From Candidatus Dadabacteria bacterium (GTDB taxonomy: Bacteria; Desulfobacterota_D; UBA1144; Nemesobacterales; CSP1-2): a stretch of 21,899 nt of DNA. This document shows, in pieces, positions 2,946-14,360 of this stretch. A program made the translations under genes and the position numbers. Where the stretch lies: assembly GCA_040289575.1 (NCBI GenBank), contig PSLL01000025.1:11724-33622 (forward strand), read 5' to 3'. Below the pieces are notes generated by a model. It worked only from the letters and a program-made list of their open reading frames with translations. It did not search any database and was not told the DNA's origin. Positions within the stretch are counted from its first letter, which is position 1, and each line of letters starts with the position of its first letter.

Positions 2946-3557
2946 TCACAATCTGGAGCCGGGTTGTATACGGGGCTTATTTGAGCAACCTGTCTCTCCC
3001 ATATCTTTAAGATGGGCCTCAATCTCTTCCAATAAGGCTTTGTCGTCTCCTGCCCTCTCGCAGGCTTTTAATAGAATATCCTTTGCCCTCTCTTTATCGC
3101 CTAATCTAGAGTATAAAACTCCGAAAGTATCTAGGACGTATGCGGGGGCACTTTCCTCAGAGGTAGCCCTGGTTAGGTATTCTAATCCCTTTTCGTAGTT
3201 TTCCCCGAGCGCGATGTAGAGAGACGCCAGGTTATTGGCTGCCTCTACATTCTTTTCATCCTTCTTGAGCGCCTTCAGGTAATACTTTTCCGCGTCTTTG
3301 TACTTTTTCTGTTTAAAATATACGTTTCCAATATTTACTAAAGGAACGACTAAACTGCCGTCCTTGTCGAGGGCCTTTTTATATTCTTTTATGGCAAGGT
3401 CATATTTGCCCTCGCTTTCGTAAGCCACACCCAGATTATTGTGTTCCTCGGCGGTTAAAGGGTCTTTCAGAAGCACAATCTTCGGGAGATAGCTGCATTC
3501 GGAAAGGGAAATTATAAGAATTAAGAAGAAACCGAACCTTACGCAGTATTTTCTCAT
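2946..3557 (-). CDS. TPR-repeat exported protein, probable lipoprotein
   Basis: Hydrophobic N-terminus ending LSEC (non-canonical lipobox); repeats HNNLGVAY/LVNIGNVY/ANNLASLY/LDTFGVLY; start overlaps the peptidase stop (ATGA at 3557-3554). Confidence 0.85.
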   Translation of the reverse strand: MRKYCVRFGFFLILIISLSECSYLPKIVLLKDPLTAEEHNNLGVAYESEGKYDLAIKEYKKALDKDGSLVVPLVNIGNVYFKQKKYKDAEKYYLKALKKDEKNVEAANNLASLYIALGENYEKGLEYLTRATSEESAPAYVLDTFGVLYSRLGDKERAKDILLKACERAGDDKALLEEIEAHLKDMGETGCSNKPRIQPGSRL

Positions 3558-4096
3558 TTTCTAATTATCAGTACGAGCCTGTCCATTTTTTTCCACTCCT
3601 TGTCCAAACTCGAGAAATTTATTTCTTGATCTCCCGCGAACCCTGTGTGGAGGAAAAATACCCTTCTACTCTTATCATAGCCATAGACCACATAGTAATG
3701 AGGCTGAGTTATAATCCACTTTCCTATGTCAACGAGTGTTATGGCAGGGACGCCCTCGTCTATAATAGACATGAGCATGTTTAGATCCCCGTTTTTTGTC
3801 TCCGCCTTATATCCCATCTCCCGCGCGTAGTTTTCCATATCGGATATGAGGGCTCCCTTTAGTTTCGGTGTGTATACCGCCTTGGCAATCTCCTCCTGAC
3901 TTATATCGCGGCCATAGAATCTCATAACCGATGCCATAGCCGCTGGACCGCAGAAAAACCCTTTCTGCTTTACAAATGGCACGTTCTCTATAATCCTCTC
4001 ATTCCCTGAGCCTGAGGCGTTTTTATATGTAGAACCTCTTTCGGCACAGGACACAAGAAAGATTGGGATTAGAGTAAAAACGAGGAATTTCTTCAA
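3554..4096 (-). CDS. Stand-alone C39-family cysteine peptidase (PA2778-like), lipoprotein
   Basis: VPFVKQKGFFCGPAAMASV (oxyanion Gln, catalytic Cys) and PHYYVVYGYD (catalytic His); lipobox FLVSC. Start placed at TTG 4096, overlapping the upstream TGA (TTGA). The ORF track start at 4123 is also possible. Confidence 0.85.
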   Translation of the reverse strand: MKKFLVFTLIPIFLVSCAERGSTYKNASGSGNERIIENVPFVKQKGFFCGPAAMASVMRFYGRDISQEEIAKAVYTPKLKGALISDMENYAREMGYKAETKNGDLNMLMSIIDEGVPAITLVDIGKWIITQPHYYVVYGYDKSRRVFFLHTGFAGDQEINFSSLDKEWKKMDRLVLIIRK

Positions 4097-4515
4097 TATA
4101 TAACGCGCCGCCTGGGTCTCCAAGGTCTGGTAGATATAATAATAAGCATTAACATCAGGAAGACTAATATAATTATCAATAGGGCTACTGCTAAGCCTGC
4201 ATCGCCGCCCGTAGGTATTTTATCCGATAGGGTGGCAATCTGGTGAATCTGCCCATCGCTCATCTTGTCTATCTTTGCCATGACCTCTTCTTTAGAAAGC
4301 CCATAGCCCTTCAGCTTCTCGGCTACTATTTTGTTCTCAAGTGCCCTGCGGATCTTCTCTATATCAATTTCCCTTACCGATGTCTTACCGTCCAGCAGTA
4401 TTAACTGTGATCCAATCATGGCACACTCGGCGGTTTCAGAGATCAAGGACGCGAGAGTAAAACTCGCGAGGACTGCAGTTATTATTAGTAGTCTGTAAGC
4501 TTTGACGAAATTCAT
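4093..4515 (-). CDS. PA2779-like exported protein, copy B (signal peptide, helical pro-region, Gly-Gly, hydrophobic tail with Arg-rich end)
   Basis: 140 aa; SD AAGGAG upstream; ...SDKIPTGG|DAGLAVALLIIILVFLMLMLIIISTRPWRPRRRVIY; directly upstream of the C39 peptidase. Confidence 0.82.
   Translation of the reverse strand: MNFVKAYRLLIITAVLASFTLASLISETAECAMIGSQLILLDGKTSVREIDIEKIRRALENKIVAEKLKGYGLSKEEVMAKIDKMSDGQIHQIATLSDKIPTGGDAGLAVALLIIILVFLMLMLIIISTRPWRPRRRVIY
4199..4431. repeat. 233-bp direct repeat, copy 1
   Basis: Base-by-base comparison with 4862-5094 (offset 663) shows a single mismatch (A4397 vs G5060). Confidence 0.97.
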
Positions 4516-4776
4516 ATCTCATTCTCCTTGGAGCTTAGAATTTATCCCGTCATCTATAAACCTGCCATGTAGTGATAAGGTTTCATAATAGAGAGATTCT
4601 CTTTTTAATCATAATGATCAATTAGAATTAGATCATAAAGAGGCCGGCGTCCTAATGATTGGGGACGGGCTTTCTCTGTCCTTACAATTATCTATCCTGT
4701 GGGGACGAATCCCGATAGGCCCATCAGTGTCACTCATCCCCACGAATAATAGAACTCTATTAGCCTCCATTAGAGA

Positions 4777-5184
4777 TCAAATCCTTAGCACCTTTAGCAA
4801 GAAGAGGATTAGGAGTATCAATACAACAAACACGAGAATTGTTATTAGAACCCCTAATGCGGCATCGCCGCCCGTAGGTATTTTATCCGATAGGGTGGCA
4901 ATCTGGTGAATCTGCCCATCGCTCATCTTGTCTATCTTTGCCATGACCTCTTCTTTAGAAAGCCCATAGCCCTTCAGCTTCTCGGCTACTATTTTGTTCT
5001 CAAGTGCCCTGCGGATCTTCTCTATATCAATTTCCCTTACCGATGTCTTACCGTCCAGCGGTATTAACTGTGATCCAATCATGGCACACTCGGCACTTTT
5101 GGAAATTAAGGACACAGGAGTAAAGCTTGCCAATATGACTGCTATTATTGATAGCCTATAAATCCTGGTTCTGATGATCTCCAT
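4777..5184 (-). CDS. PA2779-like exported protein, copy A
   Basis: ...SDKIPTGG|DAALGVLITILVFVVLILLILFLLKVLRI. SD AGGAGG abuts the ATG at 5193 but is well spaced (9 nt) from the ATG at 5184, so 5184 is preferred. Confidence 0.82.
   Translation of the reverse strand: MEIIRTRIYRLSIIAVILASFTPVSLISKSAECAMIGSQLIPLDGKTSVREIDIEKIRRALENKIVAEKLKGYGLSKEEVMAKIDKMSDGQIHQIATLSDKIPTGGDAALGVLITILVFVVLILLILFLLKVLRI
4862..5094. repeat. 233-bp direct repeat, copy 2
   Basis: 232/233 identical to 4199-4431. Confidence 0.97.
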
Positions 5185-5332
5185 ATCTAGCATCCTCCTT
5201 TTAAATTTTGTTCTATGTTATTGATACCGTGTTCTAAGAGGCACATTATTTGTCGGACGTTTTATTTTAAAATCAATCCGAAAAGAATCAAGATTTACTT
5301 TAGATTCTTTGTTAAGAGGGTTTTGTTTAAAA

Positions 5333-5359
5333 ATTATATCTTATTACATGTAATTTCAA
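5333..5359 (-). promoter_or_regulatory. Putative promoter of the PA2779/C39 cluster with a palindromic operator
   Basis: Minus strand TTGAAA-15 nt-TATAAT (short spacer); perfect 12-bp palindrome ATTACATGTAAT at 5343-5354. Confidence 0.45.
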
Positions 5360-5403
5360 ATCCAAGGAATTTTTTTGAATCTCAGAGGTAAGTTAATCCA
5401 TAT

Positions 5404-6888
5404 TTATTTCTCTAACTCCTTTATTCTCTGCCTCACTCTTTCGATATACAAGGCGTATTGCGGTGGGGCATACTGTATAAACCCCTTATATGCCTCTACC
5501 GCCTCCCGGATACGACCAACCCTCTCACAGGCAACAGCCTTATTAAAGTATGCCTCGGTAAATCCTGGGTTTATCTCCAATGCCTTATTGAAATCAGAAA
5601 TGGCTTGGTCATACAAGCCCTCTTTAAAATAGACAAGCCCACGATTATTGTATGCGGTCCAAGAATTGGGATTTCTCGATAGATTGTCACTCCAGAGCGT
5701 TTCATCATCTTTGTATATATGCTGTTGATGCTAACTCAATACACCAAGGACCCCTACAACCACCATAATCATTCCGGTTGCTAGCTGTATCCCATTAATG
5801 TGCAACCTATCATAAATATATGCACCTCCCCCAACCACCACTGCAATAACCCCTATTATAGAGATATACTGAAGATGATCAGCTACAGGTGAATACACCA
5901 TGTATGCCATACCAAAAAATCCCATCACAGGAAATAGTGTTATCACAAAATACCCAAGTCCAAATAGTATCCCCCTCCCCCATGTCCTGCGATAGTGCCA
6001 AAGAACCAAGAAACACACAATAAGGGCAATGTCCGGTAAGAATGAGACTAATTGAGACCCTTTCATATTCCACTGAGGGTATGGCATCATCAGATTCACA
6101 GGAATCAGCACCTTGTATATATAAAACCACACAACCTTCCCTGCCCTAGCCAGCCTCTCTAAAAAACCGCCACCTAGTGTTGACAATGTACCGGTTGTTT
6201 CGAGTCTATGAGCCTCTTTTGTATGGTAGTAAAGCAGGGTTACCGCACTGAATATGGCAGATAGGATAAAAAACGGTATGGTACGTACCAGGTCTCTGAG
6301 TCTAATCTCACCCCTCTGCCATAATACACATAGAACTATGACCACTGGTAGCATCACTACCGATGCCTTGCTCAATAATGCTAATACAAATACACCCAAT
6401 GAAAGACAATACCAAATCACCCGTGGATTATCCTCAAACCTCAGATATATCATAAGCGACAATACATATAAGACCATAGAGAGTGTGTTCTTCCTCTCTG
6501 AAATCCATGCAACAGATTCCACACACAGGGTGAATCGCAAAGATTAGTCCAGCCAACCATTGCCCCTCGAACCTCAAACGTTTGAGTACCTGCCATATCA
6601 TCACAGAGGCAATGGCGTGTAGTAGGACATTTATTATGTGATACCCGGCCGGGTTATTCTTCCACAGCCTCCATTCAATCCAGAAGGATGTTGAGGTTAG
6701 GGGTATGTAATCAGGGTTTCTCTACCCCACCAGATATGGGATAACCCGTTGCGTGAGTGGATCAGGGGATTCTCTGTTATGAATACGCTGTCATCCCAAA
6801 TAAAGCCACTTCGCATTGCGGGGATATAGCAGAGAAATGTAAGGACAATGATGATTCCTGACTGTAGAAGGCTTATCCGCTCTTTCAT
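5404..6888 (-). pseudogene. TMTC-like multi-pass membrane protein with C-terminal TPRs (putative GT-C glycosyltransferase), disrupted
   Basis: Fragments reassemble as GFIWDD..ITENPLI / PDYIPLTSTSFWIEWRLW..PAGYHIINVLLH..FAIHPV / VESVAWISERKN..LLSKAS..ADHLQY / IYKDDETLW..NPNSWTAYNNRG + TPR. Frameshift at about 6716, 2-bp loss in a (TG)n run at about 6521-6527, and in-frame TAG at 5733-5731. Confidence 0.85.
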
Positions 6889-13246: not shown

Positions 13247-14360
13247 ATGCAAAGAATAAAGCTCGGCACCTCGATTTCACTAAGCGGAAAGTACTCAATT
13301 CAGGGCAAAGAGAGCCTCGAAGGGCTTTGCCTTTGGGTTAAGGACATAAATCAATTGGGTGGAATCTATATCAAAGACAAAAGGTTCACAGTCGAGCTCA
13401 TACATTATGACGATGAAAGTTCAGTGGATAAGTGCCAGAGGATTGTAGAGAGGCTCATTGTTGAGGACAAAGTGGATATTCTCATAGGCCCCTATTCAAG
13501 CGGACATACACTATCTGCAGCACCGATTGCCGAAAAATATAAAAAGATACTCTGGAATCACGGCGGGGCATCGGATGAGATTTTTGAAAAGGGATTTACG
13601 TATATAATAAGTACAATTACCCCCGCAAGCAGATATTTAATTGGAATTATTGAAATGGTGATGAAGCTTGATGATGAAGCAAAGAAGCTCGCTATATTTC
13701 AAGCTGAAGACAGCGGATTCTCAACAAATGTTGCACAAGGGGCTAATTGAGTTCAGGTATCTATCTGGCACAAAGGACTTTTCTCTTTTTCTAAAAAGGG
13801 TACGAGAAAATAATCCCGATATAGTTCTCGGTGTGGGACGCGCCGAAGATGATTTAATTCTTGCCAATCAGATTATAGAAAATAGAATAAACGCAAAGGC
13901 TATTGGGCTTGTTGTAGCCGGTATAAATTATTTTCGAGAAGTTCTTAGAAAAGGTGCCGAAGGATTTTTGGGCCCAAGCCAATGGGAGAGGGGAATTAGA
14001 ATAAAACCCGACTTTGGACTGACCCCTGAGGAATTTTTTAAGAGATTTAAGGATTTGTATAATAAAGAACCCAACTTTCTTGCCGCTCAAGGATATAACA
14101 TAGGATTAATTATTCAAAGGTGCATCCAAGAATCGGGAACTCTCGATGACCTGAGCCTTCGGGAGATGGTAAATAGATTAGAGTTTAAAACATTCTATGG
14201 AAATTTTAAGATTGACCCGGCTACGGGCAATCAGATCGGTCATAAAGTAGTAGTCGTTCAGTGGCAGGAGGAAAATAAATATATTGTGCATCCCGAAGAG
14301 ATGGCAGAAAGGGTTCCGATTTACCCCAAGCCGTCCCTTTCTCAATACCCAATAATTTAA
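13247..14360 (+). pseudogene. Branched-chain amino acid (LivJ/K-like) ABC substrate-binding protein, frameshifted
   Basis: IKLG.SISLSG..IN..GG..VELIHYDDES..LIGPYSS in the first ORF; GTKDFS..PDIV..TFYGNFKID..G.Q..VVQWQ in the second; frame break at about 13745. Confidence 0.8.

What the first reader, a model, noticed from the sequence alone, without database searches (positions are those of the whole stretch)
4199..5094. Constant-leader / variable-core mosaic: 233-bp near-identical block ending just after the Gly-Gly site
Seen in sequence: 4199-4431 and 4862-5094 differ at one base (Leu/Pro), with no synonymous differences. The block runs from the end of the signal peptide (AECAMIGS) to GGDA. 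The signal-peptide DNA is homologous but has many synonymous changes (YRL..LASFT..SLIS encoded by different codons), and the tails differ in sequence and length. Inference: the duplication is old, and the pro-region was recently homogenised by gene conversion or tails are swapped as cassettes. This matches the conserved-leader/hypervariable-core logic of RiPP and bacteriocin precursors, and points independently to the tail as the functional product. Protein-level selection alone does not explain identity at silent sites.
Basis: partly seen in the sequence, partly recalled or inferred. Interest (0 to 1): 0.72.

Follow-up and report, generated by a model that had tools for sequence, protein, structure and literature searches.

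The report
Recombining twin genes beside a peptidase
Two neighbouring genes for a small membrane-anchored protein share an almost identical middle part because they keep exchanging DNA, while their different ends are old and conserved; they belong to a catalogued but unstudied protein-plus-peptidase module.

Summary
Window 4199-4431 and 4862-5094 are 232/233 identical (mismatch at 4397/5060). The flanking signal-peptide DNA is 63% identical and the tail DNA 40%. The genes (A 4093-4515, B 4777-5193, minus strand) are tandem PA2779-family (DUF6627) genes in front of a split PA2778-type C39 peptidase and a TPR lipoprotein. This scan has noted the catalogued, unstudied module in at least 21 other genomes. 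The block encodes the whole exported domain between the signal peptide and the Gly-Gly/membrane anchor. A-type and B-type heads and tails are old, separate, conserved lineages also seen in other metagenomes. Only the block is shared, so recombination between the paralogs homogenised it recently (block dS 0.02, against 0.28 to the sister species' orthologue). Exchange is recurrent:
- public assemblies hold a one-gene hybrid (B head, A tail);
- a related strain shows the same kind of hybrid protein;
- a sister species lacks gene A;
- other relatives carry a C-type gene in A's slot, with a relic of the A tail behind its stop.
The tails are not hypervariable cores. They are membrane helices under purifying selection, in a few discrete types. 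Cleavage at Gly-Gly by the neighbouring peptidase is inferred, not shown.

The parts
4777..5193 (-). Gene B, a PA2779-family / DUF6627 protein of 138 aa (a second ATG at 5184 gives 135 aa). It has a B-type signal peptide, the shared exported domain, Gly-Gly, and a B-type membrane tail.
   Evidence: NF033919 82.9 bits (cut-off 40) and PF20332 41.6 bits (cut-off 27). Its orthologue in sister species G001 is uniformly 89-90% identical in signal, block and tail.
4093..4515 (-). Gene A, a PA2779-family / DUF6627 protein of 140 aa. It has an A-type signal peptide, the shared exported domain, Gly-Gly, and a longer A-type membrane tail with an Arg-rich end. Its stop codon overlaps the likely TTG start of the peptidase gene (TTGA).
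   Evidence: NF033919 81.5 bits and PF20332 38.1 bits. A-type orthologues are P0002, P0004, P0007 and P0054. The overlap is read from the sequence and from the G001 start.
4199..4431 (-). Copy 1 of the near-identical block. It is the coding sequence of the exported domain of A, from AECAM to GGDA.
   Evidence: 1 mismatch in 233 bases against 4862-5094. It is a separate 233-base contig in runs X2 and X4.
4862..5094 (-). Copy 2 of the near-identical block. It is the coding sequence of the exported domain of B.
   Evidence: It is a separate 233-base contig in run X1.
4516..4776 (-). Spacer between B and A. About 4524-4612 is a conserved stretch just upstream of the second-slot gene.
   Evidence: It is 77-82% identical to the stretch upstream of second-slot or C-type genes in L083, L084, L033 and L034. 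Window 4098-4677 has no counterpart at the G001 locus.
3554..4123 (-). C39-type (double-glycine type) cysteine peptidase, a lipoprotein, corresponding to the N-terminal half of a PA2778-type protein. The ORF as listed starts at 4123; by homology the likely start is the TTG at 4096.
   Evidence: NF033920 105.7 bits over profile positions 2-144 of 255 (cut-off 150), PF13529 53 bits, PF03412 43.1 bits. Cys58 and His142 are invariant in 41 homologues, and lipobox Cys26 is kept in at least 90%. A profile of these homologues matches the ComA peptidase domain 3k8u at E 4.6e-14.
2946..3557 (-). TPR lipoprotein, corresponding to the C-terminal half of a PA2778-type protein. Its start overlaps the peptidase stop (ATGA).
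   Evidence: NF033920 33.8 bits over profile positions 165-240, plus many TPR families. The overlap is read from the sequence.

Best explanation
Genes A and B are two old tandem paralogues of the PA2779 family. Each encodes a signal peptide, a small three-helix exported domain, a Gly-Gly site and a C-terminal membrane helix with a basic end. They sit in front of the genome's single C39-type peptidase and its TPR partner.

The 233-base block is the exported-domain coding part. It was made identical recently by homologous recombination between the two copies (gene conversion and/or unequal crossing-over). The exchange stopped in the two conserved motifs that flank the domain (AECAM and GGDA), because beyond them the DNA is too different (signal) or unrelated (tails).

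The same recombination still reshuffles the locus. It deletes the 663-base repeat unit to give a one-gene hybrid with B's head and A's tail. In relatives it has removed or replaced the second-slot gene.

Inferred, not shown: the neighbouring lipoprotein peptidase cuts both proteins at Gly-Gly next to the membrane, separating the soluble domain from a membrane peptide of about 27-36 residues. One peptidase serving all paralogues would explain why a shared recognition domain is tolerated while the two tail types stay distinct.
For: Family and context
- Both genes score above the curated cut-offs for NF033919 and DUF6627.
- A peptidase lies within 400 nt downstream in 61 of 75 distinct loci; 4 had too little room and 10 are orphan paralogues.
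- The own genome holds only one C39 domain for three PA2779 genes.

Old ends
- A-type tails are 26-28/34 identical among three A-type proteins but only 9-14/35 identical to B-type tails.
- B-type tails are 21-27/27 identical among seven B-type proteins; the distant B_n2629 is 14-17/27.
- Signal peptides likewise sort into two types.

Young block
- A and B share 77/78 residues in this genome, against 66/80, 59/78 and 56/78 in three other A/B pairs.
- dS is 0.020, against 0.28 for B against its G001 orthologue. That orthologue is evenly diverged: dS 0.40, 0.28 and 0.31 in signal, block and tail.
- Synonymous differences between orthologues inside the block (8 codons) rule out a nucleotide-level constraint.

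Recombinants
- A contig in run X3 joins 4198 directly to 4862.
- In X1 the piece that only the two-copy form has (4402-4891) stands at depth 6.5, against 23.8 and 25.9 for the flanks that carry A's tail and B's head.
- P0003 is identical over its first 82 residues to a B-type protein and over its last 80 to an A-type protein, with an 18-residue overlap inside the block.
- G001 lacks window 4098-4677.
- G002, L083 and L084 have a C-type gene in the second slot. Behind its stop, in frame, lies an 18-20-codon relic of an A-type tail. The relic's score against A-type tails is reached by 0 of 2000 shuffles for L027 and L083 and by 2-9 of 2000 for L084; against the B-type tail about half of the shuffles reach it.
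- In G003 and G002, contigs stop inside identical parts of paralogues.

Peptidase
- The catalytic Cys and His are invariant, and the profile aligns to the ComA double-glycine peptidase.
- Gly103 and Gly104 are kept in at least 90% of 51 family members.
Against: - No raw reads were available. Contigs pop bubbles, so a few more differences between the copies could be hidden.
- The X3 joint could come from graph simplification, and depth is one figure per contig. One of the four runs may be the source of the window.
- DNA of A-type orthologues could not be fetched, so those comparisons are at protein level only. That each A-type/B-type pair (P0002/P0010, P0004/P0009, P0007/P0013) lies on one contig is inferred from equal source and contig length.
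- The donor direction is unresolved. The block is as near to an A-type protein (P0054, 68/78 by my count) as to G001's B (70/80). It carries interleaved A-like and B-like states. I first read it as B-derived and withdrew that.
- The block's failure to sort by type could partly reflect strong purifying selection rather than repeated exchange.
- The three other A/B pairs are not homogenised, so the process is episodic.
- Cleavage at Gly-Gly, the topology and the signal-peptide cut are inferences. One distant A-type protein (P0007) has Ala-Gly in place of Gly-Gly.
Confidence: 0.75

Rival explanations
1. RiPP- or bacteriocin-like precursor set. The conserved block would be a leader kept constant for the processing enzyme. 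The tails would be diversifying core peptides that are the functional products, swapped as cassettes.
For: - A C39 peptidase of the double-glycine type is the conserved neighbour.
- Gly-Gly is nearly invariant.
- Tail replacement and head/tail hybrids really occur.
- Two tail types are kept distinct while the domain before them is shared.
Against: - The tails are not hypervariable. They fall into a few conserved types, with dN/dS of 0.10-0.18 between orthologues.
- In 101 of 104 distinct C-termini the tail is a membrane helix, and 82 of 104 have Lys or Arg at the end.
- The proteins begin with a Sec-type signal rather than a leader.
- No ABC exporter or modifying enzyme is nearby.
- No known leader model matches at E <= 10.
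- Strains do without either tail: G001 lacks A's, and the hybrid form lacks B's.
Confidence: 0.15
2. Assembly artefact. The assembler collapsed or chimerised two more divergent copies, or built a two-copy contig from a mix of strains.
For: - The genome is a draft of 126 contigs.
- Relatives' assemblies break at this gene family.
- Sample populations are mixed.
Against: - Contigs of four runs from two studies reproduce both junction pieces with 0 or 1 other letters. These are 3900-4228 and 4402-4891 (the latter in two pieces in X4 and partial in X3), and the block is a single 233-base piece in three runs.
- In X4 the loop stands at 4.6-4.8, the flanks at 4.2-4.8 and the block at 8.64. That is the pattern expected if every genome there has two copies.
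Confidence: 0.04
3. Recent whole-gene duplication of B, followed by very fast divergence of both ends of the new copy.
For: The block is nearly identical and the genes are tandem.
Against: - Synonymous sites are saturated in signal and tail (dS 2.15 and beyond) against 0.02 in the block.
- A-type ends are conserved in other organisms, so they pre-date the block's identity.
Confidence: 0.02
4. Identity at silent sites is kept by a constraint on the nucleic acid itself, such as an RNA structure, an antisense transcript or a binding site inside the block.
For: None was found. Antisense ORFs of 53 and 55 aa exist in both copies, as they must in any duplicated sequence.
Against: - The orthologous block in G001 differs at 23 of 234 aligned bases, including 8 purely synonymous codons and a 6-base indel.
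- No Rfam family reaches its threshold; the one match, at 26.9 bits against a gathering score of 39, lies outside the block.
Confidence: 0.02

Closest known systems
PA2779 family protein with PA2778 family cysteine peptidase (NCBIfam NF033919 / NF033920; Pfam DUF6627)
   Same: Both small proteins pass the family cut-offs. The neighbour is the matching C39-type peptidase followed by TPR repeats. The gene order is kept in 61 of 75 distinct loci.
   Different: - The peptidase and TPR parts are two overlapping genes here and in all close relatives, so neither reaches the NF033920 cut-off (105.7 and 33.8 bits against 150).
- There are two tandem small genes plus a third elsewhere. Only 7 of 35 family-positive genomes in the phylum sample have more than one match.
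- No function is in print in the library searched. One search found 14 papers holding any of the terms PA2779, PA2778 or DUF6627. In the passages I read, PA2779 is called a hypothetical protein (PMC3985676), and PA2778 a putative C39 peptidase that could be a T6SS toxin (bioRxiv 10.1101/733030).
Double-glycine leader peptides cut by C39 peptidase domains of ABC exporters (ComA/ComC; PDB 3k8u)
   Same: The peptidase profile aligns to the ComA peptidase domain at E 4.6e-14, with the catalytic Cys and His in register. The candidate site is Gly-Gly preceded by a helical stretch.
   Different: - The peptidase is a free exported lipoprotein, not a cytoplasmic domain of an ABC transporter.
- The substrate has a Sec-type signal peptide.
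- The part before Gly-Gly is a 75-residue domain, and the part after it is a membrane helix.
- No leader family model matches.
FapD, the periplasmic C39 peptidase of the Pseudomonas Fap amyloid system
   Same: FapD is a C39 peptidase that carries a Sec signal and is active in the periplasm. Its target is unclear, and its authors say this class of C39 peptidases is not yet characterised (passages of PMC5557850).
   Different: Only a weak sequence match (NF058616, 20.6 bits against a cut-off of 330). There are no amyloid subunit or FapF genes here.
Prochlorosin-type (Nif11-leader) lanthipeptide precursor families: constant leader, variable core
   Same: Several precursor genes in one genome share one conserved part recognised by one enzyme and differ after a Gly-Gly-type site. 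I saw only the search listing and the start of the abstract of PMC10783134; the rest is recalled.
   Different: The variable parts here are a few conserved membrane-helix types, not many unrelated cores. There is no modifying enzyme, and the proteins have Sec signals.
C-terminal sorting signals: LPXTG/sortase, PEP-CTERM/exosortase, GlyGly-CTERM/rhombosortase (recalled, not tested)
   Same: Both have a three-part C-terminus: a short motif, then a membrane helix, then basic residues, paired with a dedicated processing enzyme.
   Different: The enzyme here is a soluble or lipid-anchored papain-like C39 peptidase, not a membrane-embedded transpeptidase or rhomboid. No attachment chemistry is implied.
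Concerted evolution of bacterial paralogues by gene conversion, for example tufA/tufB (recalled)
   Same: Paralogues within one genome are more alike than orthologues between species, the tract has sharp ends, and deletion or duplication products appear.
   Different: The tract is confined to one domain of a small gene, so it recombines heads and tails of different types.

Membership tests
PA2779 family (NF033919) / DUF6627 (PF20332) | Profile score above the curated cut-off | tested here: met
   Gene A scores 81.5 bits and gene B 82.9 bits (cut-off 40). For PF20332 they score 38.1 and 41.6 bits (cut-off 27).
PA2779 family (NF033919) / DUF6627 (PF20332) | Gly-Gly shortly before a C-terminal membrane helix with a basic end | tested here: met
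   Both genes have it. It is present in 101 of 104 distinct family C-termini, and 82 of 104 have Lys or Arg in the last 8 residues. The AlphaFold2 model has a helix at 106-129.
PA2779 family (NF033919) / DUF6627 (PF20332) | N-terminal signal peptide that is cleaved | not testable with these tools
   The hydrophobic N-terminal helix at 3-35 and small residues before AECAM are read from the sequence. No signal-peptide predictor was on hand.
PA2779 family (NF033919) / DUF6627 (PF20332) | Adjacent to a PA2778-type C39 peptidase | tested here: met
   The stop of gene A overlaps the likely peptidase start. A peptidase follows in 61 of 75 distinct loci.
PA2778 family cysteine peptidase (NF033920, equivalog) | Whole-protein score of at least 150 bits for one protein with peptidase and TPR parts | tested here: not met
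   The protein is split into two genes: 105.7 bits (profile positions 2-144) and 33.8 bits (positions 165-240). Six-frame search gives the same split.
PA2778 family cysteine peptidase (NF033920, equivalog) | C39 catalytic Cys and His present | tested here: met
   Cys58 and His142 are invariant in 41 sequences. They align to the ComA peptidase domain.
RiPP / class II bacteriocin double-glycine precursors | N-terminal leader of a known leader family ending in Gly-Gly, without a Sec signal | tested here: not met
   Only NF033919 matches at E <= 10; no Nif11, NHLP or bacteriocin leader model does. The N-terminus looks like a Sec signal.
RiPP / class II bacteriocin double-glycine precursors | Cognate peptidase-ABC exporter or modifying enzymes in the neighbourhood | tested here: not met
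   The neighbours are an M3 oligopeptidase, a 224-aa ORF with no Pfam match, TPR proteins, a cupredoxin and a phosphoesterase.
RiPP / class II bacteriocin double-glycine precursors | Hypervariable core after the cleavage site | tested here: not met
   The tails fall into conserved types: 26-28/34 identity within A-type and 21-27/27 within B-type. Tail dN/dS is 0.18 and 0.10 between orthologues.
Concerted evolution by recombination between paralogues | Paralogues within a genome more alike than orthologues between species, in a bounded tract with old flanks | tested here: met
   The block is 232/233 identical within the genome, against 211/234 to G001's orthologue. The flanks are 63% and 40% identical.
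Concerted evolution by recombination between paralogues | Independent recombinant products | tested here: met
   - The joint 4198>4862 and the depth pattern in public assemblies.
- The hybrid protein P0003.
- The A-tail relic behind C-type genes.
Raw reads were not available.

The most novel reading that the evidence does not exclude
The PA2779 paralogues of this genus would form a recombination-shuffled repertoire. One shared, peptidase-recognised exported domain also serves as the homology tract through which promoters and heads are recombined with alternative membrane tails (A, B, C and further types). The released product would be a membrane-embedded peptide of about 30 residues. This would amount to a Sec-dependent, periplasmic counterpart of double-glycine leader/cargo systems.
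Probability: 0.2. Interest if true: 0.7.

Novelty: new member of a known kind. Interest (0 to 1): 0.4.

Why it matters
The PA2778/PA2779 module is widespread; the Atlas clusters name Nitrospirota, Omnitrophota and Pseudomonadota. I found no functional study of it in the library searched. This locus adds three things.

- It gives a natural experiment. The exported domain can be identical in two paralogues served by one peptidase while two membrane-tail types are kept apart by selection. That points experiments at the Gly-Gly junction and at what the tails do.
- It shows that the locus varies within natural populations between a two-gene form and a hybrid one-gene form. Strain comparisons can exploit this.
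- It warns that short-read assemblies break or may mislead at this gene family. Contigs end inside the genes in G002 and G003.

The evolutionary process itself, gene conversion and unequal crossing-over between tandem paralogues, is ordinary.

Tried and rejected
**Not obtained**
There is therefore no result on binding.
- The metagenome scan brought no DNA of A-type orthologues. 28 of its 29 loci held a family gene, and the two closest (L083, L084) have a C-type gene in the second slot. Segment-wise dS for other A/B pairs could therefore not be computed.

**Led nowhere**
- Promoter and terminator scan of 3900-5500: 7 promoter-like sites against 4.4 expected and 1 terminator-like site against 1.1 expected. 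This gives no usable signal.
- Rfam: only SNORD62 at 26.9 bits against a gathering score of 39, at 4600-4641. I read it as chance.
- PADLOC: no match for A, B or the peptidase; the TPR protein gave only weak matches (a generic TPR model and PDC-M71B).
- Solved structures for the PA2779 profile: the best hit, at E 9e-4, has no matched stretch that passes on its own. It was dismissed.
- Atlas structure search: all TM-scores were below 0.4.
- AlphaFold2 model of gene A: mean pLDDT 66.4 and pTM 0.33. I used it only for helix positions and did no fold search with it.

**Withdrawn or limited**
- My early reading that the block was simply copied from B into A, based on equal 90% identity to G001's B, was withdrawn. 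Protein comparison showed interleaved A-like and B-like states.
- The other tandem pairs (L050, L063, L078) are old and diverged throughout. Homogenisation is therefore not a general property of tandem PA2779 genes.
Full report
**What is in the sequence**

The window has a single direct-repeat family, 4191-4490 / 4854-5153, with spacing 663. Within it, 4199-4431 and 4862-5094 differ at one base of 233. The mismatch is at 4397 (A) / 5060 (G) on the + strand. Immediately outside the block, identity at the same offset is 38/59 on one side and 26/59 on the other.

Both copies lie in minus-strand genes: gene A at 4093-4515 (140 aa) and gene B at 4777-5193 (138 aa). In coding direction the block starts at the Ala of AECAM and ends in the Ala codon of GGDA. 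The one difference is Leu (CTG) in A and Pro (CCG) in B.

| Segment (A against B) | nt identity | dS, Nei-Gojobori |
|---|---|---|
| signal | 53/84, with 8 purely synonymous codon differences | 2.15 |
| block | 232/234 | 0.020 |
| tail | 32/81 | saturated |

The heterogeneity is far beyond chance (Fisher p = 3e-18 and 4e-33).

**What the genes are**

- Both proteins are PA2779-family / DUF6627 members: 81.5 and 82.9 bits against a cut-off of 40, and 38.1 and 41.6 bits against 27.
- Directly downstream lies a C39-type cysteine peptidase (3554-4123). It matches the first 144 of 255 positions of the PA2778 model.
- After it comes a TPR protein (2946-3557) that matches positions 165-240 of the same model. 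This is a PA2778-type protein split into two overlapping genes (ATGA overlap).
- The stop of gene A overlaps the TTG that, by homology with the sister species, is the peptidase start.
- In 41 peptidase homologues Cys58 and His142 are invariant and the lipobox Cys26 is nearly so.
- A profile of these homologues finds the ComA double-glycine peptidase domain (3k8u) at E 4.6e-14, with Cys and His in register.
- The own genome has three PA2779 genes (the third is on another contig) but only one C39 domain.
- Across the loci collected here, 61 of 75 distinct PA2779 loci have the peptidase within 400 nt downstream, 4 had too little sequence, and 10 are orphan paralogues.

An AlphaFold2 model of A (51-sequence alignment, mean pLDDT 66.4, pTM 0.33) shows five helices:
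- an N-terminal hydrophobic helix at 3-35;
- three short helices at 52-70, 75-84 and 87-97;
- a C-terminal helix at 106-129, right after Gly103-Gly104.

The block is therefore the whole exported domain between the signal peptide and the Gly-Gly/membrane anchor.

**The tails are not hypervariable cores**

- In 101 of 104 distinct family C-termini, Gly-Gly lies at most 12 residues before a membrane-like stretch.
- 82 of 104 end with Lys or Arg.
- The part after Gly-Gly has a median of 27 residues.
- Between this genome and sister species G001, tail dN/dS is 0.18 for B and 0.10 for the third paralogue. That is as constrained as the block.
- Tails of several genera in the same family are nearly the same.
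- No Nif11, NHLP or bacteriocin leader model matches at E <= 10.
- No ABC exporter or modifying enzyme is nearby.

**The ends are old and the block is young**

A protein search found A-type proteins elsewhere (P0002, P0004, P0007, the fragment P0005 and its cluster-mate P0054). They have the same unusual head and the same long Arg-rich tail. Three of them come from the same source and contig length as a B-type protein: P0010, P0009 and P0013. That each pair shares a contig is my inference.

Identity matrices show:
- Signal peptides and tails fall into two clean lineages. A-type tails are 26-28/34 identical among three A-type proteins and only 9-14/35 identical to B-type tails. B-type tails are 21-27/27 identical among seven B-type proteins.
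- The block does not sort by type.
- Within-genome A/B block identity is 77/78 here, against 66/80, 59/78 and 56/78 in the other three pairs.

B and its G001 orthologue are evenly diverged (89%, 90% and 89% nt; dS 0.40, 0.28 and 0.31). They include 8 purely synonymous codon differences inside the block. So nothing constrains the silent sites. The A/B identity is due to recency, more than ten times younger than the split from G001.

The donor is unresolved. The block is about equally near to an A-type protein (68/78 to P0054, my count) and to G001's B (70/80). It carries interleaved A-like and B-like states, and its differences from G001's B are clustered. That fits repeated exchange in both directions.

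Both ends of the tract fall in the two motifs that all paralogues of the genus share (AECAM and GGDA). A recombination tract would be expected to end there, so the match with domain borders needs no special cassette mechanism.

**Recombination is recurrent**

1. *Public assemblies.* Contigs of four soil-metagenome runs from two studies were laid on 3900-5400.
   - The piece that only a two-copy molecule has (4402-4891: A head, spacer, B tail) varies in depth relative to the flanks:

   | Run | Loop piece | Flanks | Block |
   |---|---|---|---|
   | X1 | 6.5 | 23.8 and 25.9 | 25.8 |
   | X2 | 14.5 | 15.8 and 19.9 | 25.7 |
   | X4 | 4.6-4.8 | 4.2-4.8 | 8.64 |

   - In X3 a 1377-base contig (depth 5.42) joins 4198 straight to 4862; the only loop piece laid there (4436-4636) has depth 2.8.
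   - The flanks that stay at full depth in X1 carry A's tail and B's head. The majority form there is therefore a single hybrid gene with B head, block and A tail.
   - X1's block contig carries B's allele at the one variable site, which lies 34 bases from the head side. This is as expected for such a hybrid.
   - Caveats: these are contigs, depth is one figure per contig, the joint could be a graph simplification, and one run may be the window's source.
2. *Hybrid protein.* P0003, from another data source, is identical over its first 82 residues to the B-type P0010 and over its last 80 to the A-type P0002. The 18-residue overlap lies inside the block. It is the same kind of hybrid, in a related strain.
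3. *Loss in G001.* G001 has B followed by the peptidase. Window 4098-4677 (gene A and 162 bases before it) has no counterpart.
4. *Replacement by a C-type gene.*
   - In G002, L083 and L084 the second slot holds a C-type gene.
   - The stretch upstream of it is 77-82% identical to the one upstream of A.
   - Right behind its stop, in the same frame, lie 18-20 codons of an A-type tail. They end in the same TTGA overlap with the peptidase start.
   - The relic's alignment score against A-type tails was reached by 0 of 2000 shuffles for L027 and L083 and by 2-9 of 2000 for L084. Against the B-type tail about half of the shuffles reached it.
   - An A-type gene was therefore overwritten by C-type sequence up to mid-tail.
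5. *Assembly breaks.*
   - In G003 four contigs end inside two dispersed paralogues that share an identical stretch. By my count from the printed alignments it is about 213 bases. The tail DNA of the two copies differs mostly at silent sites.
   - In G002 two contigs stop at the same point inside C-type genes.

Multi-copy genomes are a minority: 7 of the 35 family-positive genomes among 114 searched in the phylum. Other tandem pairs are old and diverged throughout. The process is therefore episodic and concentrated in this genus and family.

**How it most likely works**

Shown:
- family membership and conserved gene order;
- intact catalytic residues of a double-glycine-type peptidase;
- a nearly invariant Gly-Gly before a membrane helix;
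- the recombination history.

Inferred:
- A, B and the third paralogue are exported by Sec and held in the inner membrane by the C-terminal helix, basic end inside.
- The lipoprotein peptidase, with its TPR partner, cuts after Gly-Gly at the membrane surface. This frees a soluble domain of about 75 residues and leaves a membrane peptide of 27-36 residues.
- Because one peptidase serves all paralogues, a shared recognition domain is tolerated, or even favoured.
- The tail types are kept apart by selection, and by the lack of homology that stops recombination tracts.

Which fragment is the product is open. The conserved, type-specific tails argue that they matter. Against that, strains manage without either tail.

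Earlier notes of this scan read the module the same way in other genomes. They mention forms in which the peptidase is fused to an Omp85-type barrel, which would favour export of the soluble part. I did not test that.

**Comparison with what is known, and novelty**

- The module is the catalogued PA2778/PA2779 pair.
- searched for PA2779, PA2778 and DUF6627 and found 14 papers holding any of the terms.
- I read passages in two of them and saw the other twelve only as a listing. PA2779 is called a hypothetical protein (PMC3985676). PA2778 is called a putative C39 peptidase that could be a T6SS toxin (bioRxiv 10.1101/733030).
- The nearest studied enzyme in setting is FapD, a periplasmic C39 peptidase whose target is still unclear (passages of PMC5557850).
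- The locus works like a double-glycine system in its likely chemistry, but it fails three of the four membership features tested for RiPP or bacteriocin precursors.
- Gene conversion and unequal crossing-over between tandem paralogues are textbook processes.
- I therefore file this as a new member of a known kind. It has a well-documented case of domain-limited concerted evolution and head/tail shuffling, and interest is moderate.

Noticed in passing
L027:1-230; L083:3440-3640; L084:3440-3640: Behind the stop of the C-type second-slot gene, in the same frame, lies an 18-20-codon relic of an A-type tail. It ends in the same TTGA overlap with the peptidase start as gene A in the window.
   Followed up: yes
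L017, L022, L023, L025 (G003); L033, L034 (G002): Contigs of two relatives end inside PA2779 genes at identical internal stretches (84-base exact overlaps in G003). This gene family breaks short-read assemblies.
   Followed up: partly
window 3994: All four public runs read C where the window has T, inside the peptidase gene. It could be a strain difference or an error in the window's assembly.
   Followed up: no
window 3480-3557: In this genome the residue just before the TPR protein's conserved Cys is Glu (LSEC). G001 and G002 have Gly there (SGC). This is an odd residue for a lipoprotein signal.
   Followed up: no
window 13247-14360: A periplasmic binding protein (Peripla_BP_6) is split into two overlapping ORFs (13247-13750 and 13668-14360). 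This is a frameshift or an assembly indel.
   Followed up: no
window 5404-6888: Upstream of gene B, three minus-strand ORFs (63 aa, 269 aa membrane-like, 70 aa TPR) look like pieces of one broken membrane-plus-TPR gene. The two larger pieces have no Pfam match apart from TPR.
   Followed up: no
L003:216-1881 (own genome, other contig): The third PA2779 paralogue (C-type, with Gly-Gly displaced by an inserted AYYR motif) is not next to a peptidase. It follows a 393-aa exported protein rich in Trp/Tyr/Gly repeats.
   Followed up: no
window 4524-4612: The roughly 90 bases just upstream of gene A are conserved (77-82%) upstream of second-slot and C-type genes in relatives, but were not found upstream of this genome's own C-type gene. 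This may be a shared regulatory stretch.
   Followed up: partly
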